From contig DASYTL010000035.1 of assembly GCA_036002305.1 (NCBI GenBank), positions 149,444 through 213,443 on the forward strand: a DNA stretch of 64,000 nucleotides, given 5' to 3'. The notes beneath the pieces are model-generated. The model made no database searches, was not told the DNA's origin, and worked only from the letters and a program-made list of their open reading frames with translations. Below are positions 4,504-64,000 of the stretch, piece after piece; the stretch's first letter is position 1; each line of letters begins with the position of its first letter. The translations under genes and the position numbers were made by a program. This DNA is from Candidatus Limnocylindria bacterium (lineage in GTDB: Bacteria; Chloroflexota; Limnocylindria; P2-11E).

Positions 4504-5846
4504 GCCGCCTCGGCCGCCGGGGCGATCTCTTCGAGTGAGCGGCCGCGGGTCTCCTCGCCGAGGAGCGCGACCGCGGCCGCCGTGACCAGCAGCATCGCCA
4601 TGAACAGCGCGAACGTGCCGTTCACCTCGATCGAAGAGACGAGCACCGGAGTCAGGTACGGGCCGATGATCCCGCCGACGCGCCCCACCGCCGCGGCGAC
4701 CCCGGCGCCGGTCGCGCGAACGGCGGTCGGGTAGAGCTCGGGCGTGTACGTATAGACGATGCCCCATGCCCCAAGGTTGAAGAACGAGAGCAGCGCCGCC
4801 CACACGAACGCATCGCTCCCCGCGCCGGCGTTGCCGAACATGTACGCGGCGACGGCCGTCCCGAGGAGGTACGTCACGAGGGTCGGCTTCCGGCCCCAGC
4901 GCTCCACGAGCCAGGCGGCGCTGAAGTATCCCGGCACCTGAGCGAGTGTCGACAGGAAGAAGAATTCGTTGCTGCGGACCTCCGAGAGCCCGCGCGCGGC
5001 GAGGATCGACGGTATCCAGAGGAAGATCCCGTAGTAGGTCAGGACCACTCCGAACCACAGGATCCAGAGCATCGCGGTCCGGCGCGCGTACCGACCGCTC
5101 CAGAGCTCCGCGATCCGCGTCCGGCCGCCACGAGTCGGTGGCACGGCGGGCGCGAGCGTCAGCAGCGCTCCCCCGCCCGCGCGCTCCACCCGCCGCACGA
5201 TCGCGTCGGCTTCGGGCGCGCGCCCGCGTTCGGCAAGGAAGCGGGGTGACTCGGGGAGCGCGCGCCGCAGGTACGCGACGTAGAGCGCCGGCAGCGCACC
5301 CACGGCGAAACCCCAGCGCCACCCGAAGTTGGCTACCACGGTGATCGCCACGATCCCCGCGAGGATCGTCCCGTACGCCCAGAACGACTCGAGGAGCACG
5401 ATCATCCGTCCGCGCTGCGCACGGGGCGAGAGCTCGCTGACGAGCGTCGCCACGACCGGGAGCTCGCCGCCGAGACCGAGCCCGGCGACGACGCGGGCGG
5501 CCAGAAGGGTCTCGAAGCTGGGCGCGACCGCCGACAGCGCGCTTCCGAACGAGAAGACGACGAGCGTGGCCGTGAATACGGCGCGGCGCCCGTACCGGTC
5601 CGCGAGCCGGCCGGCCGCCGCGGCGCCGATGAACATTCCGAGAAAGGTCGCGCTTGCGATGAGCCCGACGCCCGTCGCGTCGAGCTTGAACTCGGCGCGG
5701 ATCGGGGCGAGGAGGAAGCTCAGCATGAGGACGTCCATCGCGTCGAACATCCACCCGAGCCCCGACAGGATGAGCAGGCGCCAATGGAAGCTGTTCAGTG
5801 GCACGCGGTCGAGCCGCGCGACGAACGTCTCGGCGCTGGTGCTCAC
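4500..5846 (-). CDS. MFS transporter
   Basis: 12-TM pattern; LGWMFDAMD and GRLADRYGRR (MFS motif A-like). Confidence 0.85.
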   Translation of the reverse strand: MSTSAETFVARLDRVPLNSFHWRLLILSGLGWMFDAMDVLMLSFLLAPIRAEFKLDATGVGLIASATFLGMFIGAAAAGRLADRYGRRAVFTATLVVFSFGSALSAVAPSFETLLAARVVAGLGLGGELPVVATLVSELSPRAQRGRMIVLLESFWAYGTILAGIVAITVVANFGWRWGFAVGALPALYVAYLRRALPESPRFLAERGRAPEADAIVRRVERAGGGALLTLAPAVPPTRGGRTRIAELWSGRYARRTAMLWILWFGVVLTYYGIFLWIPSILAARGLSEVRSNEFFFLSTLAQVPGYFSAAWLVERWGRKPTLVTYLLGTAVAAYMFGNAGAGSDAFVWAALLSFFNLGAWGIVYTYTPELYPTAVRATGAGVAAAVGRVGGIIGPYLTPVLVSSIEVNGTFALFMAMLLVTAAAVALLGEETRGRSLEEIAPAAEAA

Positions 5847-5849
5847 CGG

Positions 5850-6902
5850 CTAATTCCCCAGACAGCCCTCGGCGGCGAGGAGCTCGGCGTTGAGCACCGA
5901 CGCACCCGCCGCCCCGCGGATCGTGTTGTGGGTGAGGACGACGAACTTCATCCCCAGCACAGGGTCTTCGCGGACGCGTCCGACGGTGGCCGCCATCCCG
6001 CGCTCGGTGTCTCGGTCGAGAATCGGCTGCGGCCGGTCTCGCTCGTCGCGCACGTGGATTGGACGCTCGGGCGCCGTCGGCAGGCGGAGCTCCTGGGGGC
6101 GGCCGCGGAAGCTCCGCATCGCGTCCTTGACCGCGTCCACCGGCGGGGAACCGCGTAGGGCGATGCTCACCGCCTCGGTGTGGCCGTCCCGCACCGGGAC
6201 GCGGTTGCAGTGCGCTGAGAAGAGGAAGTCGGCGTCCACGAAACGTTTACCGTCCCAGGTCCCGAGGAACTTCCTCGTCTCGACCTTCATCTTCTCCTCT
6301 TCCTCGCCGATGAAGGGGACGACGTTGTCGAAGGCGTCCAGGGACGCGACGCCCGGGTATCCGGCGCCGGAGAGCGCCTGCATCGTGGTCACGACCGCGC
6401 GCTCGATCCCGAACGTCTTGTGCAGCGGGGCGACGGCGAGCGCGAACCCGATCGCGGAGCAGTTCCCGTTCGTCACGAGCGAGCCGGTCCAGCTGCGCTT
6501 GCGTCGCTGCACCTCGAGCGCGTGCATGTGCTCGGGGTTGACCTCGGCGATCATCAGCGGGACGTCATCGTCCATGCGGTGCGTCTTCACGTTGGAGAAG
6601 ACGTGGTGCCCGGTCTTCGCGAGCGCGGCCTCCCAGAGCTCGGCGGCCTCGGACGGGAGCGCCGAGAAGCAGACCTCGGCGTCCAGATCCGCCTTCGTCG
6701 GCTGGAGCGTCATGTCCGCGACACCCGCCGGCATCTCGCCGGGCGAGTGCCACGGCGTGACGTCGCCGTAGCGCTTGCCCGCCTTCGCGTCGCTCGTGGT
6801 GAGCGCCGCGATCTCGAACCACGGATGGGCGGCGAGCAGCCCGATGAAGCGCTGCCCGACCGTGCCCGTCGCGCCGAGGACCGCGACCTTCCGCCTGCGC
6901 AT
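5850..6902 (-). CDS. asd: aspartate-semialdehyde dehydrogenase
   Basis: VAVLGATGTVGQRF Rossmann motif, NGNCSAIG active-site Cys, SGAGYPG. ATG at 6902; the longer 499-aa ORF extension is rejected. Confidence 0.92.
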   Translation of the reverse strand: MRRRKVAVLGATGTVGQRFIGLLAAHPWFEIAALTTSDAKAGKRYGDVTPWHSPGEMPAGVADMTLQPTKADLDAEVCFSALPSEAAELWEAALAKTGHHVFSNVKTHRMDDDVPLMIAEVNPEHMHALEVQRRKRSWTGSLVTNGNCSAIGFALAVAPLHKTFGIERAVVTTMQALSGAGYPGVASLDAFDNVVPFIGEEEEKMKVETRKFLGTWDGKRFVDADFLFSAHCNRVPVRDGHTEAVSIALRGSPPVDAVKDAMRSFRGRPQELRLPTAPERPIHVRDERDRPQPILDRDTERGMAATVGRVREDPVLGMKFVVLTHNTIRGAAGASVLNAELLAAEGCLGN

Positions 6903-25175: not shown

Positions 25176-26423
25176 CTAGCCGCCGCCGGGCGGCGTCGCG
25201 AGCAGCTCCTCGGCGGCGAAGCCCTGGCCGCGGACGAGCGCCAGGACCGCGTCGGCGTGCGCCCGGTCACGCGTGTCGACGATGACGTCGAGTCCGACGC
25301 GGCCGAGGGCCGCGTACGGGCCGAGACGATGGATCCCGACGTGGAGGATGTTGATGTGCTCGCGGGCGAGGAGTCCGGTGAGCAGATGCAGCATTCCCGG
25401 CTTGTCGTCGAGCCAGGTCCGGAACGCGAGGTAGCGGCCGGCAGAGACGAGTCCCTGCTGCAGCGCCTTCGTCAGCAGGTTCGCGTCGATGTTCCCCCCG
25501 CTGATCACGACGCCGACCTTCCGGCCGCCCACGCGTCCGTCCGCCTCGAGCACGGCACCCAGGCCGGCCGCGCCGGCACCCTCCGCGAGGAGCTTCGCCC
25601 GCTCGAGCAGGACGACGATCGCGCGCGCGATCGCCTCGTCACTCACGGTGATGACGTCGTCGACGAGGCGCTTCACGATCGCCAGCGTCCGCTCGGCGGG
25701 TCGACGAACCGCGATCCCGTCGGCGATCGTCGCGGCGGGCCGCTCGACCACTTTGCCGGCCGCGAAGGAGTCGGCGAAAGCCGACGCGCCCGCCGCCTGG
25801 ACGCCGATGATCCGCGGCCGCGGCGATCGTGCCGCGGCGACGAGGGCGACGCCGGCGATGAGCCCGCCGCCGCCGACCGGAACGACGAGCGTGTCGACGT
25901 CGGGCACGTCCTCGAGGAGCTCGAGCGCGAGCGTTCCCTGCCCCGCGATCACGTCGTCGTCGTCGAACGCGTGCACGTACGCGCGCCGCTTCTCGCGTGC
26001 GAGCTCGAGCGCCGTCGCCTGCGCCTCGTCGTAGCTCTCGCCGGAGAGGACCGTCTCCGCCCCGGTTCGCTGGATCGCGATGAGCTTCGCGAGCGAGACG
26101 CCCTGCGGGAGGACGACGGTGGCCGGCACGCCGACCAGCTGCGCCGCGTACGCGATCCCCTGCCCGTGGTTGCCGGCGGACGCGGTGACCACGCCGCTCG
26201 CCCGCTCGCGCGGGTCTCTCCGCATGAGCGCGTGGAGCGCGCCACGTATCTTGAACGCCCCGGTCTTCTGGAGGTTCTCGAGCTTGAGGTAGACCTCGCG
26301 GCCCGACAGCGTCGAGAGCGCCTCCGAACGCTCGGTCGGGGTGCGGCGGATGTGGGGCGCGATGAGCCTCGCGGCGTCGACGACCGCCGCTTGGTCGAGC
26401 GATCGGGGCGTCACGACGCTCAT
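25176..26423 (-). CDS. ilvA: threonine ammonia-lyase (threonine dehydratase) with C-terminal ACT-like domain
   Basis: LKLENLQKTGAFKIRGA (PLP Lys), SAGNHGQG, VPVGGGGLIAG. Confidence 0.9.
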   Translation of the reverse strand: MSVVTPRSLDQAAVVDAARLIAPHIRRTPTERSEALSTLSGREVYLKLENLQKTGAFKIRGALHALMRRDPRERASGVVTASAGNHGQGIAYAAQLVGVPATVVLPQGVSLAKLIAIQRTGAETVLSGESYDEAQATALELAREKRRAYVHAFDDDDVIAGQGTLALELLEDVPDVDTLVVPVGGGGLIAGVALVAAARSPRPRIIGVQAAGASAFADSFAAGKVVERPAATIADGIAVRRPAERTLAIVKRLVDDVITVSDEAIARAIVVLLERAKLLAEGAGAAGLGAVLEADGRVGGRKVGVVISGGNIDANLLTKALQQGLVSAGRYLAFRTWLDDKPGMLHLLTGLLAREHINILHVGIHRLGPYAALGRVGLDVIVDTRDRAHADAVLALVRGQGFAAEELLATPPGGG

Positions 26424-26430
26424 CGTGCCA

Positions 26431-27651
26431 TTACGCCAGCCGGTCGACCGCGCGTCTGAGGCGCCGGACCCCCTCGTCGATACGATCTGGCGACGGTCCG
26501 CTGATCGAGAAGCGGAAAGCGTTCGAGAGATCGCGGTCCACCGCGAACGCCGCGCCCGGCACGAACGCCACGCCTTCCGCGAGGGCGACGTCGAGGAGCA
26601 CCCGCGCGTCCACGTGTTCCGGCAGCCGGACCCAGAAATAGAAGCCGCCCGCGGGGTCATTCCAGGTCACCGCCGCGCCCGCGAGCTCGCGCGCCAGGGC
26701 CGTGCGCCCGCGGTCCTGCTTCTCGCGGTAGAGCGCGCGAAGCCGCTCGAGATGGGCGGCGACGCCGCCGCGGCGGTGGAACTCGATGACTATGCGCTGC
26801 GCGAGCGTGCCCGTGCTCGAGTCCATCGTCTGTTTCGCCTTCGCCATCCGGCCGATCGTCTCGGGATCCGCGACCACCCAGCCGACCCGTAGCCCGGGCA
26901 GGAACGTCTTCGAGAACGTACCGATCGAGACGACCCTCCTGTCCAGCGCGGCGAGCGGCGGGAGGTCCGGGCCCCGGTAGCGCAGCAGCGCGTACGGATC
27001 GTCCTCGACCACGATCGCCTCGTAGCCCGCCGCGAGGGCGAGTAGGGACTCTCGGCGCTCGAGCGACAGGGTCTCCCCCGAGGGATTGCTGAAGTTCGGC
27101 ACAACGAAGAACATCCGCGGCCGCGCGTTCGCGCGGCGGAGCAGGCGGGCGGCTTGCGCGACGTCGAGGCCATCGCCGTCGACAGGCGCCTCCAGGACCC
27201 GCGCGCCGTGATTGCGAAACGCCGACAGGGCGTTGGCGAAGCCCGGCGATTCCGCGACCACCACGTCGCCAGGCCGGAGGAAGACCCGGCACGCGAGATC
27301 GATCGCCTGCAACGCTCCGGCGCTGACGAGCACCTCCGCCGAAACGGCGCGGATGCCGCGTGCGCGAGCCTGATCCGCCACGAGCTCTCTGAGCTCGGGC
27401 TCGCCCTCGGTGATGCCGTAGCCGAGCGCGCTCGCACCCTGCGTCCGGATGACCGCGGCGGCGAGATCTTCCGCTCCGACGATGTCGAGCGCCTCGCGGG
27501 CAGGCGAGCCGACCGCGAAGGAGACGATGTCGCGTGTCTGGCGCGCGACGATCCCGATCGTCTCGTCGATGAAGGAGCCGAACACTTCGTGATCCGGGCG
27601 CGGCGCGACGCCTTCCTTCTCTTGCGCGCGCACTTGCCTGACGGTCGCCAT
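26431..27651 (-). CDS. PLP-dependent aminotransferase, class I/II (LysN / 2-aminoadipate aminotransferase-like)
   Basis: NFSNPSGETL, GTFSKTFLPGLRVGW (PLP Lys), FRFS. Confidence 0.85.
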   Translation of the reverse strand: MATVRQVRAQEKEGVAPRPDHEVFGSFIDETIGIVARQTRDIVSFAVGSPAREALDIVGAEDLAAAVIRTQGASALGYGITEGEPELRELVADQARARGIRAVSAEVLVSAGALQAIDLACRVFLRPGDVVVAESPGFANALSAFRNHGARVLEAPVDGDGLDVAQAARLLRRANARPRMFFVVPNFSNPSGETLSLERRESLLALAAGYEAIVVEDDPYALLRYRGPDLPPLAALDRRVVSIGTFSKTFLPGLRVGWVVADPETIGRMAKAKQTMDSSTGTLAQRIVIEFHRRGGVAAHLERLRALYREKQDRGRTALARELAGAAVTWNDPAGGFYFWVRLPEHVDARVLLDVALAEGVAFVPGAAFAVDRDLSNAFRFSISGPSPDRIDEGVRRLRRAVDRLA

Positions 27652-27884
27652 CGCCGTGCCCTCCTCTTCGATGGGATCGAAAAGGCCTCCCTTTCGGGAG
27701 GCCCTCTGCTCGCCTGGATCTGGGTCGTTGGTGCGGTCAGCCTCCCGAACGCGAGGAGAGCCCCGGCTCCGGGGCGATCGACGGCGACGGGACGATGGCG
27801 AGCCGCATGTGAGGAGGGACCGTAGCGGAGCGCCGCTCGCGCGGTCAACATGGGTCGCGCGGGCGGTGCAGCCCGCACAGTGTG
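27652..27884 (-). promoter_or_regulatory. attenuator-like 5' leader A (upstream of aminotransferase-ilvA)
   Basis: Contains a 23-codon uORF (27737-27808) whose UGA lies in the UCGCGUUCGGGAGGCUGAC box, an alternative pairing partner GGCCUCCC, a terminator-like hairpin, and then GAGGAGG-N7-AUG. Homologous to leader B. Confidence 0.6.
27678..27703 (-). terminator. leader A terminator/sequestor hairpin
   Basis: RNA GGCCUCCC-GAAA-GGGAGGCC followed by UUUUCG. Confidence 0.6.
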
Positions 27885-28154
27885 TCAGCCGCCGCTCATC
27901 GCCGGCAGGATCTCGACGACCCGCTTGCCGCGGAGATCGCCGTCCCCTTCGAGGAATCGCACGTCCTCACCGTCGACGAAGACGTTCACGAACCGGCCGA
28001 ACTCCCCGTCTCGGAGCACCCGTGTCGCGAGCTCCGGGTAGCGGTCGGCGATCTGGCGCACCAGAGCCGAGACGTCCGGGGCGTCGAACGACAGCGTCGC
28101 GCTGCCCCCGGCCGCGGCGCGCAGCGGCGTGGCGAGGCGAACGGTGATGCTCAT
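27885..28154 (-). CDS. ThiS/MoaD-family sulfur-carrier protein (C-terminal Gly-Gly)
   Basis: 89 aa beta-grasp-like protein ending ...EILPAMSGG-stop. ATG overlaps the ThrC-like stop (ATGA). Confidence 0.8.
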   Translation of the reverse strand: MSITVRLATPLRAAAGGSATLSFDAPDVSALVRQIADRYPELATRVLRDGEFGRFVNVFVDGEDVRFLEGDGDLRGKRVVEILPAMSGG

Positions 28155-29395
28155 CGCAGCTCGTCCACGTAGGCGCCGCGGAACTCGTCCGCGTCGGCGC
28201 CGATGACCGGGCCGAGCGGTCCCGACACGGGCTGACCCTTGTACGCGTTGCCGGTGATGTAGAGGACGACGCTCTCGCCACCCTGGAACGCGTTCCGCTT
28301 CGCGAGGGCGCGAGCAGCCGCGACCACGACGCCCCCGGCGGGCTCGGCGAGCACGCCTTCGGTCCGCGCGAGGAGGGCGCAGGAGTCGAGGACGTCCTCG
28401 TCGGTGACAGCGGCGGCGGACCCGCCGCTGGCGCGGATCGCGGCGACCGAGCCGTCGCCGTCGGCGGGCGTGCCGATCGCGAGGGAGCGTGCCACCGTCG
28501 TGGGCGCGCGCACCGGCCGGACCTCGCGGAACCCCTCGAGCACCGCGTCCGAGACCGGCGCGCATCCGACCGGCTGCGCCGCGTGGATGCGGCAGGGTGT
28601 GTCGTCGACGAGCCGTGCCGAGCGGAGCTGCGTGACGGCCGTCGCGGTGCGGGTGAGCAGCGCGCCGGATCCGACCGGCACGACGACGTGGTCCGGGAGC
28701 GTCCAGTCGAGCTGCTCGGCGGTCTCGAAGAGAAGGGTCTTCGAGCCCTCGGCGTAGTAGGGCCGCAGCGTGAAGTTGACGAATCCCCAATGCTCCTCGT
28801 CGGCGAGGCGGGCGCAGAGCCGGTTGACCTGGTCGTACGTGCCGCGGACGCGGACGACGGTCGCGCCGTACGCGGCGGCGCCGGCGACCTTACTTTCGTC
28901 GGTCGCCTCGGGCACGAAGACGAACGCCCGGAGCCCGTTGCGCGCCGCTGCCGCCGCGACGGCGCCCGCGAGATTCCCGGTCGACGCGCAAGCCAGCGTG
29001 TCGAGTCCGACCGCGAGCGCGCGCGCCAACGCGAGCGCGACCGGCCGGTCCTTGAACGAGAGCGACGGATTGCGCGAGTCGTCCTTCAGGTAGAGACGCT
29101 CCACGCCGATCGCCGCCCCGAGACGCGGCGCGAGATGAAGCGGGGTCCAACCGACGGTGTAGTGCGACGCCGGCTCGGCGACCGGGAGCAGCGGCGCATA
29201 CCGCCAGAGCGAACGCGGACCGCGCGTGATCTCCTCGCGCAGGAGGTCGGGATCGAGCGCCGCGAGGTCGTATTCGGGCTCGATCGGGCCGTAGCAGTCC
29301 GAACACACGTACCGCTCGTCGGCGGGCTGGAGCAGCTGGCACGCGCGACAGCGAAATCCCCGCAGAGCCGTGGTTCTTTCGAGCGTCGTCGCCAT
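28151..29395 (-). CDS. threonine synthase family PLP enzyme with N-terminal zinc ribbon (ThrC or MetM-like)
   Basis: CRAC...CSDC ribbon, NPSLSFKDRP (PLP Lys), ASTGNLAG. Translationally coupled to the sulfur-carrier gene. Confidence 0.88.
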   Translation of the reverse strand: MATTLERTTALRGFRCRACQLLQPADERYVCSDCYGPIEPEYDLAALDPDLLREEITRGPRSLWRYAPLLPVAEPASHYTVGWTPLHLAPRLGAAIGVERLYLKDDSRNPSLSFKDRPVALALARALAVGLDTLACASTGNLAGAVAAAAARNGLRAFVFVPEATDESKVAGAAAYGATVVRVRGTYDQVNRLCARLADEEHWGFVNFTLRPYYAEGSKTLLFETAEQLDWTLPDHVVVPVGSGALLTRTATAVTQLRSARLVDDTPCRIHAAQPVGCAPVSDAVLEGFREVRPVRAPTTVARSLAIGTPADGDGSVAAIRASGGSAAAVTDEDVLDSCALLARTEGVLAEPAGGVVVAAARALAKRNAFQGGESVVLYITGNAYKGQPVSGPLGPVIGADADEFRGAYVDELR

Positions 29396-29649
29396 CGTGA
29401 GACCTCCACATAAAAGGAGAGGCCTCCCGTTCGGGAGGCCTCCTATCTGCCTGGATGCGCCGAAGTCTCTGAGTCAGCCTCCCAAACGCGAAGCGGGCCC
29501 CGCAATCGAGGCCATCGCCATGGACATAGGCATCGTCTGGGCGCGACTCACCACGACGAGCCTACGAAGCGGTCCCACCCGCAGTCAAACGAGAGGTGCA
29601 CTCTGCACGAACGGCCGAGGTCAAAACGGCCCATCCCTAGACTCGCGCG
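29396..29649 (-). promoter_or_regulatory. attenuator-like 5' leader B (upstream of ThrC-like/ThiS-like pair); also the divergent hisZ promoter region
   Basis: 19-codon uORF MPMSMAMASIAGPASRLGG (29474-29533) with its UGA inside the UCGCGUUUGGGAGGCUGAC box, a terminator-like hairpin, and then GGAGG-N8-AUG. Confidence 0.6.
29411..29442 (-). terminator. leader B terminator/sequestor hairpin
   Basis: RNA GAGGCCUCCC-GAAC-GGGAGGCCUC followed by UCCUUUUAU. Confidence 0.6.
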
Positions 29650-30831
29650 ATGGAGGACCAGGCTCGTCCGCTCGGCCCGCCGCGAGGATTTCGCGATGTC
29701 CTGCCGACTGAAGCTCGCGAGCTCGGGTCGATCGAGCGGTCGCTAACGGACACGTTCCGCTCGTACGGCTACATGCCGCTCGAGCCGCCGATGGTCGAGT
29801 TCAGCTCCGGCCAGTCTCAAGAGCGGCTCATCCAGTTCCTCGACAGCGACGGCAGCCTCGTGACCCTCCGCCCGGATCTCACGACGGCCGTAGCGCGGCT
29901 CGTCGCCCAGCGCTATCGGGAGACTCGGGGCGCGCTGCGGCTCTCGTACGTCGCGCCGATCTTCCGCGAGGAGCCGGCCATGACCGCGAGCGATCGCCAG
30001 CTCCTCCAAGCGGGAGTCGAGCTCATCGGCGCTTCCGGTCCGCTGGCCGACGCCGACGTCCTCGCGCTCCTCGCCGAGGCGCTCGAGTGCTGCGGGTTGC
30101 GATCGGAGCGGACGACGATCCACGTTGGTCACCTCGGCGTGGTGCGCCGGCTCTTCGCCGAGCTCGACCCGTCCTCGCGCGACCTGGTTCTCGACGACCT
30201 GCGCCGGGGCGATCTCGTCGGGGCCCTCTCGCGGGCGCGCGACGCGGGAATGTCCGGCGAAGGCCTCGGCCGCGCGCAAGAGGCGCTGGGCGTGATCGGC
30301 AGGGGCATCGAAGAGCTGGCCGGCGATGACGTCAGCGAGATCCGCCACGTGATCCACCTCGCGCGCGAGCGCCATCACGGCGCGAACGACCTCTGGGGCG
30401 TCCCGAACATCGGTCTCATCCCACGGCTTCCCTACTACACGGGGGTCGTCTTCGAGGCGCTCCATCCGGACGTCGGCGTCATCGCTTCGGGCGGGCGATA
30501 CGACCTGCTGATCGGCGCTTTCGGCGCGCCGCGGCCCGCGACGGGGTTCGCGATCGACGTGCTTCGCCTGCACCGCGCGCTTTTCGCCGACGGCTGGCGG
30601 CCCGCGGTCGCGCAGCCGCTGTTCACGATCCGTCCGGGGGCCGACGAGCGGCTCGTGATGCGCTGCGCGGGCGCTCTGCGATCCGCCGGATTGTCGGTCG
30701 TGCTCGGCGATGTCGCCGAGAGCGCGGGTGTCCCGGTCGTCGCGGTGGACGTCGTCGACGAGGCGCGCGTGAAGCTCGTCGATGGCCGCGTCGTCGACAT
30801 CGAGACGCTCGCGCGGGAGATCCGTCGGTGA
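29650..30831 (+). CDS. hisZ: ATP phosphoribosyltransferase regulatory subunit (HisRS paralog)
   Basis: PRGFRDVLP, LRPDLTTAVAR, class II aaRS-like core without an anticodon-binding domain; directly precedes short-form hisG. Confidence 0.88.
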   Translation: MEDQARPLGPPRGFRDVLPTEARELGSIERSLTDTFRSYGYMPLEPPMVEFSSGQSQERLIQFLDSDGSLVTLRPDLTTAVARLVAQRYRETRGALRLSYVAPIFREEPAMTASDRQLLQAGVELIGASGPLADADVLALLAEALECCGLRSERTTIHVGHLGVVRRLFAELDPSSRDLVLDDLRRGDLVGALSRARDAGMSGEGLGRAQEALGVIGRGIEELAGDDVSEIRHVIHLARERHHGANDLWGVPNIGLIPRLPYYTGVVFEALHPDVGVIASGGRYDLLIGAFGAPRPATGFAIDVLRLHRALFADGWRPAVAQPLFTIRPGADERLVMRCAGALRSAGLSVVLGDVAESAGVPVVAVDVVDEARVKLVDGRVVDIETLAREIRR

Positions 30832-31472
30832 GGCCGCTGCGTTTCGCGCTCGCGCAGGGACTGCTCCTGAACGATGCGCTCGCGTCCCTTCGCGCCATCG
30901 GGATGGACGTCTCGCGCGTCACGCCGGGCGGCAGGCGGCTCGTCGTCGGCGGTGGCGACATCGAGTTCGTGCTGGCGCGGCCGAGTGACATCGCGACGTA
31001 TGTCGAGCGCGGCGCGGCCGATATCGGGATCGTCGGAAAGGACGTGCTCATGGAGTCGGGGGCGCGGGTGATCGAGCTCGTCGACCTGCGCTTCGGCAGG
31101 TGTCGCTTCGTCGTGGCCGCGCCCCGCGGGGAGATCGAGCGCGCGCTCGACGAGTATCGCCACCTCGGGAGCCTGGTCGTCGCCACGAAGTACACGCGGG
31201 TCACCGAAGCGCACTTCCGGGCGCGAGGGACCGAGGTCGAGATCGTCAAGGTTGCCGGATCCGCCGAGGTGGCCCCGCAGGTCGGCCTGGCCGACTGGAT
31301 CGTCGATCTCGTCGCCACGGGCGCCACCCTTCGCGCCAACGACCTCGGGATCGTCGAGGAGATCGCCTCGTGCAGCGCGCGTCTCGTCGCGAACCCGGCC
31401 TCGTACCACCTGCGCAGGCGGGAGATCGCTCCGATCGTGGAGAAGCTCGTGGCCTGGGCGGAGCGACAATGA
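30828..31472 (+). CDS. hisG: ATP phosphoribosyltransferase, short form
   Basis: ARPSDIATYVERGAADIGIVGKD, LVATGATLRAN; GTGA overlap with hisZ. Confidence 0.92.
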   Translation: MRPLRFALAQGLLLNDALASLRAIGMDVSRVTPGGRRLVVGGGDIEFVLARPSDIATYVERGAADIGIVGKDVLMESGARVIELVDLRFGRCRFVVAAPRGEIERALDEYRHLGSLVVATKYTRVTEAHFRARGTEVEIVKVAGSAEVAPQVGLADWIVDLVATGATLRANDLGIVEEIASCSARLVANPASYHLRRREIAPIVEKLVAWAERQ

Positions 31473-63632: not shown

Positions 63633-64000
63633 CTACCCGGCCGTCCGGCGTGGATCGAGAGCGTCGCGCAGACCGTCGCCCATGTAATTGATCGAAAGCA
63701 CCGTGACGAAGATCAGCGCGCCCGGAAAGATCACCCAGTGGGGTGCCAGATCGATGTAGTTCTGCGCGTCGTAGAGCAGCCGACCCCAGGTCGGCACGTC
63801 TGGCGGGAACCCGAGCCCGAGGAAGGACAACGTCGATTCGGTGAGGATCGCGCCGCCGACACCGATGGTGGCCGCCACCACGACGGGGCTCAGCACGTTC
63901 GGGAGGATGTGCTTGATGATGATCCGGCTGTTGGGGGCGCCGACGGTGCGCGCCGCTTCGACGAACTCGCGGCGCTTCAGCGACAGGAACTGCGCGCGGA
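63633..64000 (-). CDS. ABC transporter permease (DppC/OppC-like), C-terminal part; 5' end outside window
   Basis: EFVEAARTVGAPNSRIIIKHILPNVLSP, ESTLSFLGLG, INYMGDGLRDALDPR. Confidence 0.88.
   Translation of the reverse strand, partial: RAQFLSLKRREFVEAARTVGAPNSRIIIKHILPNVLSPVVVAATIGVGGAILTESTLSFLGLGFPPDVPTWGRLLYDAQNYIDLAPHWVIFPGALIFVTVLSINYMGDGLRDALDPRRTAG

What the first reader, a model, noticed from the sequence alone, without database searches (positions are those of the whole stretch)
27678..27754. Two homologous attenuator-like leaders in front of two amino-acid biosynthesis operons
Leader A lies at 27652-27884 upstream of aminotransferase-ilvA. Leader B lies at 29396-29649 upstream of the ThrC-like/ThiS-like pair. 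Read in RNA sense (minus strand), they share three elements in the same order and spacing.
(1) A near-identical 19-nt box: UCGCGUUCGGGAGGCUGAC at 27736-27754 in A, and UCGCGUUUGGGAGGCUGAC at 29473-29491 in B.
(2) An AUCCAGGC box: 27712-27719 in A, 29449-29456 in B.
(3) A near-identical GC hairpin GGCCUCCC-GAAN-GGGAGGCC followed by a U-run, then a GGAGG Shine-Dalgarno and the AUG.
The upstream GGGAGGC can pair with the GCCUCCC 5' arm of the hairpin. That gives a classic antiterminator versus terminator choice. The same CCUCC arm could also sequester the true SD, so three GGAGG copies compete for one CCUCC. I could not match the upstream parts to T-box, SAM-I, SAM-IV, lysine, glycine or ZTP consensus sequences from memory. 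This may therefore be an unclassified cis-regulatory RNA or a leader-peptide attenuator family.
Basis: seen in the sequence. Interest (0 to 1): 0.78.

Follow-up and report, generated by a model that had tools for sequence, protein, structure and literature searches.

The report
Leaderless leader-peptide attenuators, Met and Ile
The two look-alike leaders are ribosome-sensing transcription attenuators: each starts with a tiny gene whose codons (methionine in one, isoleucine/valine in the other) let a stalling ribosome decide whether a terminator hairpin forms. They belong to an undescribed family that one soil Chloroflexota lineage has copied and re-coded for several amino-acid pathways.

Summary

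- **What the 19-nt box is.** It holds the last codons of that ORF (S-R-x-G-G-stop). Its GGGAGGC is also the antiterminator strand that competes with the terminator's 3' arm for GCCUCCC.
- **Leader B**, in front of a MetM/MetO-like pair, encodes VSRAQTMPMSMAMASIAGPASRLGG.
- **Leader A**, in front of aminotransferase-ilvA, encodes MRLAIVPSPSIAPEPGLSSRSGG.
- **Translation start.** Both ORFs begin 7-10 nt after a TTGAC-18-TAnnnT promoter and have no Shine-Dalgarno, so they look leaderless.

About 120 relatives from Limnocylindria MAGs and soil metagenomes keep the same roughly 23-codon scaffold. Their internal codons follow the operon:

- Met upstream of metM (8-fold enriched).
- His upstream of hisZG.
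- Ile/Leu upstream of aminotransferase-ilvA.
- Leu/Ile/Val upstream of ilvB.
- Cys upstream of a regulator gene.

Distant metM homologues carry SAM-I riboswitches instead. No Rfam family matches.

**Verdict:** a classic ribosome-mediated attenuation mechanism in a new, lineage-specific, paralogous family. Met sensing by B is well supported. Ile/BCAA sensing by A is plausible but weaker. Nothing has been tested experimentally.

The parts
29596..29608 (-). Leader B: palindrome GTGCAGAGTGCAC, 7 nt upstream of the -35 box. It also faces the divergent hisZ gene.
   Evidence: The same motif lies 7-8 nt upstream of -35 in most group-1 Met leaders and in all four His leaders.
29559..29588 (-). Leader B promoter-like site: -35 TTGACT (29583-29588), 18-nt spacer, -10 TAGGCT (29559-29564).
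   Evidence: Read. The TTGAC-18-TAnnnT arrangement is conserved in the relatives. The generic sigma-70 scan did not flag it.
29474..29551 (-). Leader ORF B: GTG start 7 nt after the -10 box, no SD. It has 25 codons plus TGA and encodes VSRAQTMPMSMAMASIAGPASRLGG, with 4 Met codons.
   Evidence: It aligns codon for codon with the group-2 metM leaders MAQRISMSMPMAPMAGPATRLGG.
29496..29513 (-). Leader B: small GC hairpin inside the ORF (GGCCUCG-AUUG-CGGGGCC). Candidate pause hairpin and apex of the 1:2 structure.
   Evidence: RNAalifold predicts it family-wide. One pair switches CG to GC in 4-5 sequences.
29473..29491 (-). The antiterminator strand GGGAGGC is at 29477-29483.
   Evidence: The duplex with the terminator's 5' arm and loop is -21.9 kcal/mol.
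29409..29443 (-). Leader B: terminator hairpin GGAGGCCUCCC-GAAC-GGGAGGCCUCU (29418-29443) followed by CCUUUUAUG.
   Evidence: flags it as terminator-like. The hairpin is -22.7 kcal/mol.
28151..29407 (-). SD GGAGG (29403-29407) and the ThrC-like gene (ATG at 29395), interpreted as the MetM-like homocysteine synthase.
   Evidence: One search shows threonine-synthase-family hits. Eleven of 19 distant homologues sit behind SAM-I riboswitches. The MetM/MetO pathway is described in 10.1101/2024.10.14.618325.
27885..28154 (-). MoaD/ThiS-like sulfur-carrier gene (MetO-like), ending in ...AMSGG.
27866..27878 (-). Leader A: palindrome GTGCGGGCTGCAC, 17 nt upstream of the -35 box.
27819..27848 (-). Leader A promoter-like site: -35 TTGACC (27843-27848), 18-nt spacer, -10 TACGGT (27819-27824).
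   Evidence: The aminotransferase leader of L142 has the same arrangement.
27737..27808 (-). Leader ORF A: ATG 10 nt after the -10 box, no SD. It has 23 codons plus TGA and encodes MRLAIVPSPSIAPEPGLSSRSGG. It has no internal Met; it has Ile5, Val6 and Ile11.
   Evidence: Its closest relatives are the aminotransferase-ilvA leaders of L142 and L118.
27760..27775 (-). Leader A: intra-ORF hairpin GCCCCG-GAGC-CGGGGC.
27736..27754 (-). Leader A: the 19-nt box, which is codons S-R-S-G-G plus TGA. The antiterminator strand GGGAGGC is at 27740-27746.
   Evidence: The duplex with GGGCCUCCCGAA is -22.1 kcal/mol.
27676..27704 (-). Leader A: terminator hairpin GGGCCUCCC-GAAA-GGGAGGCCU (27683-27704) followed by UUUCGAU, a weak U-tract.
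   Evidence: The hairpin is -20.1 kcal/mol. The terminator scan did not flag it.
26431..27664 (-). SD GGAGG (27660-27664) and the PLP aminotransferase gene (ATG at 27651).
   Evidence: In other genomes this gene lies inside BCAA clusters.
25176..26423 (-). ilvA, threonine ammonia-lyase. Its ATG at 26423 is 7 nt after the aminotransferase stop.
   Evidence: TIGR01127, 431.9 bits against a cut-off of 378.75..

Best explanation
Both leaders are ribosome-mediated (leader-peptide) transcription attenuators of the trp/his type, built on a leaderless mRNA.

**Proposed mechanism (inferred)**
1. Transcription starts at or within about 3 nt of the start codon of a 23-25-codon ORF.
2. The last codons of that ORF (GGA GGC, then the stop) contain GGGAGGC. 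This is strand 2, which can pair with the GCCUCCC 5' arm (strand 3) of the downstream terminator and with part of its loop, giving 11-13 bp.
3. **Cognate aminoacyl-tRNA plentiful.** The ribosome runs to the stop codon and covers strand 2. Strand 3 then pairs with strand 4 (GGGAGGCC), and RNA polymerase terminates before the operon.
4. **Cognate aminoacyl-tRNA scarce.** The ribosome stalls at regulatory codons in positions 4-14. This exposes strand 2 and also covers the 5' half of the ORF, which would otherwise pair with strand 2. Strand 2 captures strand 3 before strand 4 is made, and transcription reads through.
5. **No ribosome.** The ORF folds back on itself (1:2, capped by a small GC hairpin that may pause the polymerase), and the terminator forms.

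**Specificity**
- Leader B has four Met codons and senses Met-tRNA for the MetM/MetO-like homocysteine-synthesis genes.
- Leader A is the orthologue of the aminotransferase-ilvA leaders. It has lost all internal Met codons and keeps Ile5, Val6 and Ile11, so it most likely senses isoleucine (BCAA) supply.

**Shown here:** the sequence anatomy, the conservation, the match between codons and operons, and pairing that is energetically feasible.
**Inferred:** the transcription start, translation of the ORF, stalling, termination, and the amino-acid response.
For: 1. **Conserved ORF.** Eleven relatives were found through the MetM protein alone, so they are not biased by any RNA pattern. All carry one 23-codon ORF, MR[LF]xLIPPMP[IM]AP[MI]PG..RxGG-stop, upstream of metM. 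The Met moves between positions 11 and 14.
2. **Codons track the operon.** This was seen in 110 metagenome loci plus model hits.
   - The 43 distinct metM leaders have 105 Met in 950 internal codons, 8.2 times the background.
   - The hisZ-hisG leaders read MRRLHHAHSS... They have His at positions 5, 6 and 8 (9.8-fold enriched) and no internal Met.
   - The aminotransferase-ilvA leaders are MAFALLPIILPAPIPG.., MSLVLIPIPPMAPIPG.. and the window's leader A. They have 0-1 internal Met, and Ile is 2.4-fold enriched.
   - The ilvB leader is MEFARFLLALIGIVLVERAYVRSGG.
   - A Cys-rich leader, MLYRCCAMAMPEAHCTCVCAM.., also exists.
   - Sources.
3. **Position of the regulatory codons.** They all lie at positions 4-14, far enough upstream that a stalled ribosome leaves strand 2 free.
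4. **Leaderless geometry.** The start codon lies 7-9 nt after a TAnnnT -10 box in 117 of 121 members. None has a Shine-Dalgarno.
5. **Coding signature.** In 48 group-1 sequences, variation is concentrated at third codon positions (entropy 10.7 against 4.5 and 3.2). The ORF is far more conserved than the spacer, at 0.28 against 0.87 bits per site.
6. **Structures.**
   - The terminator is paired in 99% of cells, with compensatory changes in its outer pairs.
   - The antiterminator is paired in 92.5% of cells. One pair switches UA to CG in 6 sequences, linking codon 21 to the terminator loop.
   - The antiterminator duplex (-22 kcal/mol) is comparable to the terminator (-20 to -23 kcal/mol).
   - Masking a ribosome footprint at codons 7-9 cuts the terminator's equilibrium advantage from 6-12 kcal/mol to between -4 and +3 kcal/mol in window A, window B (codon 7) and the group-1 leaders.
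7. **Independent link to methionine.** Eleven of 19 distant homologues of the ThrC-like/MoaD-like pair sit directly behind SAM-I riboswitches.
8. **Aminotransferase-ilvA belongs to BCAA clusters elsewhere.** Examples are ilvB-ilvC-HMGL-aminotransferase-ilvA-leuC and ilvD-aminotransferase-ilvA-leuC.
9. **Precedent.** Leaderless leader peptides are described in Deinococcus deserti (PMC4007540), Streptomyces lividans (PMC8079986) and mycobacteria (10.1101/834739).
Against: - There are no experimental data of any kind: no mapped transcription start, no Term-seq, no Ribo-seq.
- The core pairs of the terminator and antiterminator are invariant. In the metagenome set they were also imposed by the search pattern, so they carry no covariation evidence. 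The real covariation amounts to a few pairs in a few clades.
- At equilibrium the terminator stays favoured by 8-13 kcal/mol in the His, group-2 and group-3 leaders, even with a stalled-ribosome mask. The model therefore depends on co-transcriptional kinetics.
- The U-tracts are short and interrupted. Leader A's UUUUCGAU failed the terminator scan.
- Leader A has only two Ile and one Val codon, and Ile6 and Ile11 also occur in the Met leaders. With only four distinct aminotransferase leaders, the Ile enrichment is weak (p about 0.02, and the sequences are not independent).
- Sensing Met through a leader peptide has a conceptual difficulty. Initiation of the leader ORF needs Met-charged initiator tRNA, and a failure to initiate is predicted to favour termination.
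- The family sequences are closely related, so the enrichment p-values are inflated.
Confidence: 0.82

Rival explanations
1. The leaders are metabolite-binding riboswitches (for SAM, Met, Ile or similar). The conserved box and spacer would form an aptamer that controls the same terminator, and the ORFs would be incidental.
For: The metM-like operon is riboswitch-controlled (SAM-I) in other phyla. The elements have conserved sequence and a terminator/antiterminator switch. No known family matches, so an unknown aptamer cannot be formally excluded.
Against: - The only conserved structure besides the terminator is a 6-bp hairpin.
- The spacer between the stop codon and the terminator is the least conserved part.
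- The same scaffold precedes Met, His, BCAA and Cys operons, and it differs mainly by in-frame codon replacements that match each operon.
- ORF length and frame relative to GGGAGGC are fixed, and substitutions show three-base periodicity.
Confidence: 0.03
2. Stalling in the leader ORF acts mainly on translation, by exposing or hiding the Shine-Dalgarno of the first gene as in the mycobacterial polycysteine sORFs. On this view the GC hairpin is a structural element and not an intrinsic terminator.
For: - The U-tracts are short and interrupted, and leader A failed the terminator scan.
- In the minimum-energy fold of leader B, the spacer GAGACUUC pairs with the SD region GGAGGUCUC.
- The closest experimentally studied leaderless system works through RBS sequestration (10.1101/834739).
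Against: - The hairpin is a textbook 9-11 bp GC stem with a tetraloop, followed by U-rich sequence in nearly every member.
- The SD lies 10-25 nt beyond the hairpin and is not part of any conserved pairing.
- The SD pairing seen in leader B is not seen in leader A or in the relatives.
Confidence: 0.08
3. A trans-acting protein sets the terminator/antiterminator choice or the promoter activity, and the ORFs play no sensing role. The protein would bind either the conserved RNA box or the GTGCA-N3-TGCAC palindrome.
For: A conserved palindrome sits next to the -35 box in most members and in both window copies. In some relatives, PucR-type regulators are encoded next to family members.
Against: - The palindrome is shared by Met and His leaders and is absent from group-2 Met leaders, so it cannot provide amino-acid specificity.
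- No PucR-type paralogue is present in the window.
- A protein model does not explain the match between codons and operons.
- A transcription factor at the palindrome could well act in addition to attenuation.
Confidence: 0.05
4. Leader A is only the terminator of the upstream metM-metO operon plus a decayed, non-functional copy of the Met leader. Aminotransferase-ilvA would then be expressed constitutively or by read-through.
For: - In 11 relatives there is no leader between metO and the aminotransferase, and in many of them the two genes are fused.
- Leader A has lost the Met codons and has a weak U-tract.
- L159 shows a Met-type leader that lost one Met and now sits in front of the aminotransferase.
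Against: - Leader A keeps an intact promoter, a 23-codon ORF, the internal hairpin, the antiterminator and the terminator. It scores higher against the family model than leader B.
- Stand-alone aminotransferase-ilvA operons in L142, L118 and L150 carry orthologous Ile/Leu-rich leaders that are not downstream of metO.
Confidence: 0.1

Closest known systems
Classical leader-peptide attenuators of enterobacterial trp, his, leu, thr, ilv and pheA operons (Rfam His_leader, Phe_leader and others)
   Same: - A short ORF enriched in codons for the operon's amino acid.
- Mutually exclusive 1:2, 2:3 and 3:4 pairings that end in an intrinsic terminator.
- Ribosome position decides the outcome.
   Different: - There is no sequence or model similarity. 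The best Rfam score is Phe_leader at 22-24 bits against a cut-off of 55, and it comes from the terminator alone.
- The ORF is leaderless instead of SD-driven.
- Regulatory codons are few (2-5) and scattered, not in tandem runs.
- Members for different amino acids are clear paralogues of one scaffold.
Leaderless leader peptides of Actinobacteria and Deinococcus. Examples are S. lividans trpL, leuL, ilvL and the putative metL upstream of metNIQ (PMC8079986), and the 14 predicted in D. deserti (PMC4007540).
   Same: - The transcription start coincides with the start codon of a short ORF enriched in cognate codons.
- The ORF lies upstream of amino-acid genes in a high-GC bacterium.
- Hairpins follow, with poor U-tracts.
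   Different: - The phylum differs (Chloroflexota, class Limnocylindria), and there is no sequence relation.
- Here one conserved cassette is reused for at least five specificities. The cassette is the promoter, a 23-codon ORF, GGGAGGC at the stop, and a GCCUCCC hairpin.
- The S. lividans metL precedes a transporter and has no clear terminator.
Mycobacterial polycysteine leaderless sORF attenuators, the 'Cys ribulon' (10.1101/834739)
   Same: - Leaderless sensory sORFs.
- Several operons are coordinated through ribosome stalling on one amino acid.
- Experimentally validated, so it serves as a model for how such elements work.
   Different: - The mycobacterial elements work by unmasking the downstream ribosome-binding site, that is, on translation. 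Here the anatomy points to intrinsic termination.
- The mycobacterial sORFs sense one amino acid. This family covers several.
SAM-I riboswitch (RF00162) upstream of metM/metO homologues
   Same: It occupies the same position, directly upstream of the ThrC-like/MoaD-like pair. It plays the same role, feedback control of methionine synthesis through a terminator.
   Different: It senses SAM directly with a 108-nt aptamer. The window elements have no aptamer and no Rfam match, and they sense Met-tRNA indirectly through translation.

Membership tests
Ribosome-mediated leader-peptide transcription attenuator (mechanistic class) | A short ORF lies between the promoter and the first structural gene. 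| tested here: met
   ORF A is at 27808-27737 (23 codons) and ORF B at 29551-29474 (25 codons). The ORF is conserved in length and frame in about 120 relatives.
Ribosome-mediated leader-peptide transcription attenuator (mechanistic class) | The ORF is enriched in codons for the amino acid made by the operon. | tested here: met
   Leader B has 4 Met in 24 internal codons. Family-wide, Met is 8.2-fold enriched before metM and His 9.8-fold before hisZG. Leu, Ile and Val dominate before ilvB. For leader A alone the result is inconclusive: 2 Ile plus 1 Val, with Ile 2.4-fold enriched across the three aminotransferase leaders counted.
Ribosome-mediated leader-peptide transcription attenuator (mechanistic class) | An intrinsic terminator lies between the ORF and the first gene. 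| tested here: met
   The GC hairpins are -20.1 kcal/mol (A) and -22.7 kcal/mol (B), each followed by U-rich sequence. The hairpin is paired in 99% of cells across the family. The U-tracts are imperfect, and A is not flagged by the scan.
Ribosome-mediated leader-peptide transcription attenuator (mechanistic class) | An alternative antiterminator pairing exists whose availability depends on ribosome position. | tested here: met
   GGGAGGC sits in the last codons and pairs with the 5' arm plus loop, at -22 kcal/mol. The pairing is kept in 92.5% of cells, with one UA-to-CG covarying pair. It is blocked when the footprint sits on the stop codon and competitive when the footprint sits on codons 7-9.
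Ribosome-mediated leader-peptide transcription attenuator (mechanistic class) | The ORF is actually translated, and expression responds to the amino acid. | not testable with these tools
   The support is indirect only. The start codon lies 7-9 nt after the -10 box in 117 of 121 members, and substitutions show third-position periodicity.
Known Rfam leader families (His_leader, Phe_leader, Trp/Leu/Thr leaders and others) | A score at or above the family's gathering threshold. | tested here: not met
   There are no gathering-level hits in the window. The best hit is Phe_leader at 23.7 and 22.1 bits against a cut-off of 55. The His-type relative L046 has no His_leader hit.
SAM riboswitches (SAM-I, SAM-IV and others) and T-box leaders | A match to the aptamer or T-box covariance model. 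| tested here: not met
   There is no hit even at E up to 10 across 27550-29750. The same search method does find SAM-I in 11 distant metM loci.
Leaderless sensory sORF attenuators (mycobacterial Cys type) | Output through sequestration and release of the downstream ribosome-binding site. | tested here: inconclusive
   An SD-spacer pairing appears in leader B's minimum-energy fold only. It is absent from leader A and the relatives. The conserved hairpin plus U-run argues for termination.

The most novel reading that the evidence does not exclude
One ancestral leaderless attenuator cassette has been copied and re-coded across Limnocylindria genomes. The cassette comprises a palindrome, a promoter, a 23-codon ORF ending in GGGAGGC-stop, and a GCCUCCC terminator.

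The copies place at least five amino-acid pathways under direct ribosome-stalling control: Met, His, Ile, Leu/Ile/Val and Cys. Two PucR-type transcription factors are controlled the same way. This would be a multi-amino-acid 'ribulon' that replaces the SAM-I riboswitch used elsewhere for metM-metO.

It would also include a clear-cut methionine-sensing leader-peptide terminator. I found no experimentally studied example of that in the literature I searched.
Probability: 0.55. Interest if true: 0.65.

Novelty: new member of a known kind. Interest (0 to 1): 0.5.

Why it matters
- **Regulation in an uncultured group.** It shows how an abundant, uncultured soil lineage (Limnocylindria) regulates amino-acid synthesis. 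The lineage appears to use translation-coupled attenuation where other phyla use riboswitches or T-boxes.
- **A natural evolution series.** The members are recognisable paralogues, which is unusual for attenuators. They show a sensor changing specificity through a handful of codon swaps: Met to His to Ile to Cys. They also show operons being split or merged by gaining or losing a copy. In relatives, metM-metO-aminotransferase-ilvA runs under one Met leader. In this window the same genes form two units under a Met leader and an Ile-type leader.
- **Annotation.** It supports reading the 'threonine synthase'/MoaD pair as methionine (homocysteine) synthesis genes.
- **Database value.** It supplies a ready covariance model for a family missing from Rfam.
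- **Design.** The compact scaffold of about 130 nt could serve as a template for synthetic amino-acid-responsive switches.

Tried and rejected
- **Rfam.** Searches at gathering thresholds and at E up to 10 gave nothing but sub-threshold Phe_leader hits driven by the terminator. Known leader, SAM and T-box families are rejected.
- **Generic sigma-70 scan.** It found no promoter. The promoter call therefore rests on the conserved TTGAC-18-TAnnnT seen across relatives.
- **More copies in the window.** There are none. The 16-bit model hit at 63841-63933 lies in coding-like sequence with no terminator.
- **AUCCAGGC box.** I looked for a role and found none. It is absent from every relative and has no consistent pairing partner, so it is left unexplained.
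- **Recent duplication of A and B.** Rejected. A is closest to the aminotransferase leaders of other genomes and B to group-2 Met leaders, while A against B is the lowest pair at 0.69.
- **Palindrome as a Met-specific operator.** Rejected, because the His leaders carry it too.
- **PucR-type regulator in the window.** None found.
- **Equilibrium folding.** It does not by itself give the antiterminator in all classes, so I rely on the kinetic argument.
- **Deinococcus paper supplement.** The list of leader peptides is not held.
- **Chance hits.** About 19 of the 110 metagenome pattern matches lack a family-type ORF and were discarded.
Full report
**1. The observation**

- The 19-nt boxes are at 27736-27754 and 29473-29491. 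They are the only two matches in the window at up to 3 mismatches, against 0.15 expected.
- ATCCAGGC is at 27712-27719 and 29449-29456.
- The hairpin GCCTCCC-N4-GGGAGGC is at 27685-27702 and 29422-29439. These are the only exact copies.
- The two leaders are 74% identical overall.

**2.

The box is the 3' end of a short ORF.
- Leader A encodes MRLAIVPSPSIAPEPGLSSRSGG-stop at 27808-27737.
- Leader B encodes VSRAQTMPMSMAMASIAGPASRLGG-stop at 29551-29474.

Each ORF follows a promoter-like TTGACC/TTGACT-18 nt-TACGGT/TAGGCT. It starts 10 nt (A) or 7 nt (B) after the -10 box, with no Shine-Dalgarno. That geometry is expected for a leaderless mRNA. The GGGAGGC that can pair with the terminator's 5' arm lies in the last two or three codons, directly before the stop.

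**3. Genes and organism**

Downstream of leader B lies a threonine-synthase-family protein and an 89-aa MoaD/ThiS-like protein ending in Gly-Gly. Downstream of leader A lies a PLP aminotransferase and IlvA. The aminotransferase is 100% identical to a protein from a Candidatus Limnocylindria MAG, and the closest loci are Limnocylindria/Chloroflexota MAGs.

The ThrC-like/MoaD-like pair matches the recently described MetM/MetO thiocarboxylate route from O-phosphohomoserine to homocysteine. MetM is noted there as commonly misannotated as threonine synthase (10.1101/2024.10.14.618325). Independently, 11 of 19 more distant homologues of this pair sit directly behind a SAM-I riboswitch. These come from Acidimicrobiia, Solirubrobacterales and other groups. 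The pair therefore belongs to the methionine regulon.

**4. Relatives found without RNA bias**

Eleven loci were retrieved through the MetM protein alone. All carry one leader upstream of metM with a 23-codon ORF, MR[LF]xLIPPMP[IM]AP[MI]PG[LF]xxRxGG-stop. Met swaps between positions 11 and 14, so at least two internal Met codons are always kept.

In these genomes metM, metO and the aminotransferase are contiguous with no second leader. In several, ilvA follows. In many, MetO and the aminotransferase form one fused ORF.

**5. The family and its codon switching**

A metagenome scan with GGAGGCTRR-N25-55-GCCTCCCNNNNGGGAGGC returned 110 loci. About 91 of them hold the same ORF architecture. A covariance model built from 78 distinct members then found more diverged members. 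The internal codons follow the downstream operon.

| Downstream genes | Example leader peptide | Key feature |
|---|---|---|
| metM | MAQRISMSMPMAPMAGPATRLGG, MRAALAASMAMARISGSISRSGG | 43 distinct peptides; 105 Met in 950 internal codons, 8.2-fold over background |
| hisZ-hisG | MRRLHHAHSSVAPISGLAVRPGG | His 9.8-fold enriched; no internal Met |
| aminotransferase-ilvA | MAFALLPIILPAPIPGPASRSGG (L118, L150), MSLVLIPIPPMAPIPGSSSRSGG (L142) | Ile/Leu-rich |
| ilvB | MEFARFLLALIGIVLVERAYVRSGG | Leu/Ile/Val-rich |
| PucR-type regulator genes | Ile/Val-rich and Cys/Met-rich ORFs | |

All regulatory codons fall in positions 4-14. The start codon lies 7-9 nt after a TAnnnT box in 117 of 121 members. 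Within 48 group-1 sequences, variation concentrates at third codon positions, and the ORF is much better conserved than the spacer. This match between codons and operons is the hallmark of leader-peptide attenuation. It is very hard to reconcile with a ligand-binding RNA.

**6. Structures**

RNAalifold predicts a small GC hairpin inside the ORF (codons 12-17) and the terminator.

Pair counts:
- The terminator is paired in 99% of cells, with compensatory changes in its outer pairs.
- The internal hairpin has a CG-to-GC switch.
- The antiterminator (ORF nt 58-70 with the 5' arm plus loop) is paired in 92.5% of cells. One UA-to-CG covariation links codon 21 to the terminator loop.
- The invariant core pairs were partly imposed by the search pattern, so I do not count them as evidence.

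Energies:
- The antiterminator duplex is about -22 kcal/mol.
- The terminator is -20 to -23 kcal/mol.

Effect of the ribosome:
- With no ribosome, the 5' half of the ORF pairs with the box region (a 1:2 structure). The terminator is then favoured by 6-19 kcal/mol.
- With a footprint on codons 7-9, the gap shrinks to between -4 and +3 kcal/mol in window A, window B (codon 7) and the group-1 leaders.
- In the His, group-2 and group-3 leaders the gap stays at 8-13 kcal/mol, so the switch must be kinetic there.
- With a footprint on the stop codon, the antiterminator strand lies inside the ribosome.

**7. The two window leaders specifically**

- Leader B aligns codon for codon with the group-2 Met leaders. 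The ancestral ATG has become CGC, and a GTG two codons upstream now sits 7 nt from the -10 box. This fits a requirement that the start codon coincide with the transcription start.
- Leader A's ORF is closest to the aminotransferase-ilvA leaders of L142 and L118 (0.81 and 0.78). A against B is the least similar pair, at 0.69. The two are therefore old paralogues and not a recent duplication.
- Leader A has no internal Met, while the other aminotransferase leaders have 0-1. It keeps Ile5, Val6 and Ile11.
- Aminotransferase-ilvA lies inside BCAA clusters in other genomes, and IlvA is the first isoleucine-specific enzyme.

Ile/BCAA sensing is the best reading for leader A, but it rests on few codons and only four distinct sequences.

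**8. Comparison with what is known**

The mechanism is the classical attenuation of trp/his operons, in the leaderless form reported in three groups:
- Deinococcus deserti (PMC4007540);
- Streptomyces lividans, including a tentative metL before metNIQ (PMC8079986);
- the experimentally dissected mycobacterial polycysteine sORFs (10.1101/834739).

It is not a member of any Rfam family. Three things are new:
- the lineage;
- a well-supported Met-specific terminator-type leader peptide that stands where other phyla have SAM-I;
- attenuators for different amino acids that are evident paralogues of one cassette.

My literature searches found no description of this family or of leader-peptide attenuators in Chloroflexota. 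The library is incomplete, however.

**9. Verdict**

The feature is real, and its mechanism is confidently assigned as a class (about 0.8). It is a new member of a known kind. Interest is moderate. The mechanism will not surprise a specialist, but the re-codable paralogous family and the Met sensor are worth a short paper and an Rfam entry.

Noticed in passing
window 29596-29608 and 27866-27878 (minus strand); relatives such as L016, L046, L142: A palindrome GTGCA-N3-TGCA(C/T) lies 7-8 nt upstream of the -35 box in most group-1 Met leaders and in all four His leaders. In the aminotransferase leaders it lies 17-20 nt upstream. Group-2 Met leaders lack it. It is part of the copied promoter cassette and cannot be amino-acid specific. 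It may be the site of a general regulator.
   Followed up: partly
window 29609-29652 (plus strand), hisZ-hisG at 29650-31472: hisZ is divergent from leader B and has no His leader, although relatives L046, L060, L108, L128, L047 and L143 have one. A TAGACT box lies 6 nt before its ATG, so hisZ itself may be leaderless. The leader-B palindrome lies about 29 nt upstream of that box and could serve both promoters.
   Followed up: no
P0003, P0008 and about 40 other homologues; L001:5239-6672: In many relatives the MetO-like sulfur carrier is fused in frame to the aminotransferase (...EILPAMSGG|AVAPLP...FGSFIDE, 486-490 aa, ThiS/MoaD plus aminotransferase domains). The Gly-Gly would have to be exposed by proteolysis. 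In the window the two genes are separated by a stop codon and leader A.
   Followed up: partly
L118:2480-3300; L134:517-1300 and 5585-6330; also L131, L132, L103, L051, L080, L120: Diverged family members precede genes for PucR-type HTH regulators of about 220 aa. One class encodes VSQPIIVIVPVDLLVLEKAHQTLGGEAT and the other MLYRCCAMAMPEAHCTCVCAMGDHGLGGGS. The Ile/Val class has a palindrome GTGCG-N3-CGCAC inside its promoter spacer, and its regulator gene sits directly upstream of the ilvB leader. Attenuators that control transcription factors are unusual.
   Followed up: partly
L118:3385-3520 and equivalents in L080, L103, L044, L132, L051, L120, L131, L134: A Leu/Ile/Val-rich member (MEFARFLLALIGIVLVERAYVRSGG) lies upstream of an ilvB-ilvC-leuA-ilvD cluster. 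Its -10 box is not of the TAnnnT type.
   Followed up: partly
window 27712-27719 and 29449-29456: The AUCCAGGC box sits at the same offset in both window leaders but is absent from every relative. No consistent pairing partner was found. It could be chance or local gene conversion.
   Followed up: yes
L011-L013, L015, L017, L020-L023, L029, L032 (about 70-220 nt upstream of the gene): SAM-I riboswitches lie directly upstream of ThrC-like/MoaD-like pairs in Acidimicrobiia, Solirubrobacterales and other MAGs. This supports annotating these 'threonine synthases' as MetM.
   Followed up: yes
L159:799-931: A group-1 (Met-type) leader with Met14 changed to Lys (MRFALIPPMPIAPKPGFASHSGG) lies directly upstream of aminotransferase-leuC-leuD. 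It looks like an intermediate in the re-targeting of a Met leader.
   Followed up: no
L008 (DATLPP010000225.1): A MAG labelled Candidatus Udaeobacter (Verrucomicrobiota) carries a typical Limnocylindria leader-metM-metO-aminotransferase locus at 78% protein identity. This is probably a binning contaminant.
   Followed up: no
L118:2622-2640 and equivalents: The Ile/Val-class PucR gene aligns with its paralogue's ATG at an ACG codon (…GGGGGCACGT ACG AGC GAC…). Its start codon is unclear or non-canonical.
   Followed up: no
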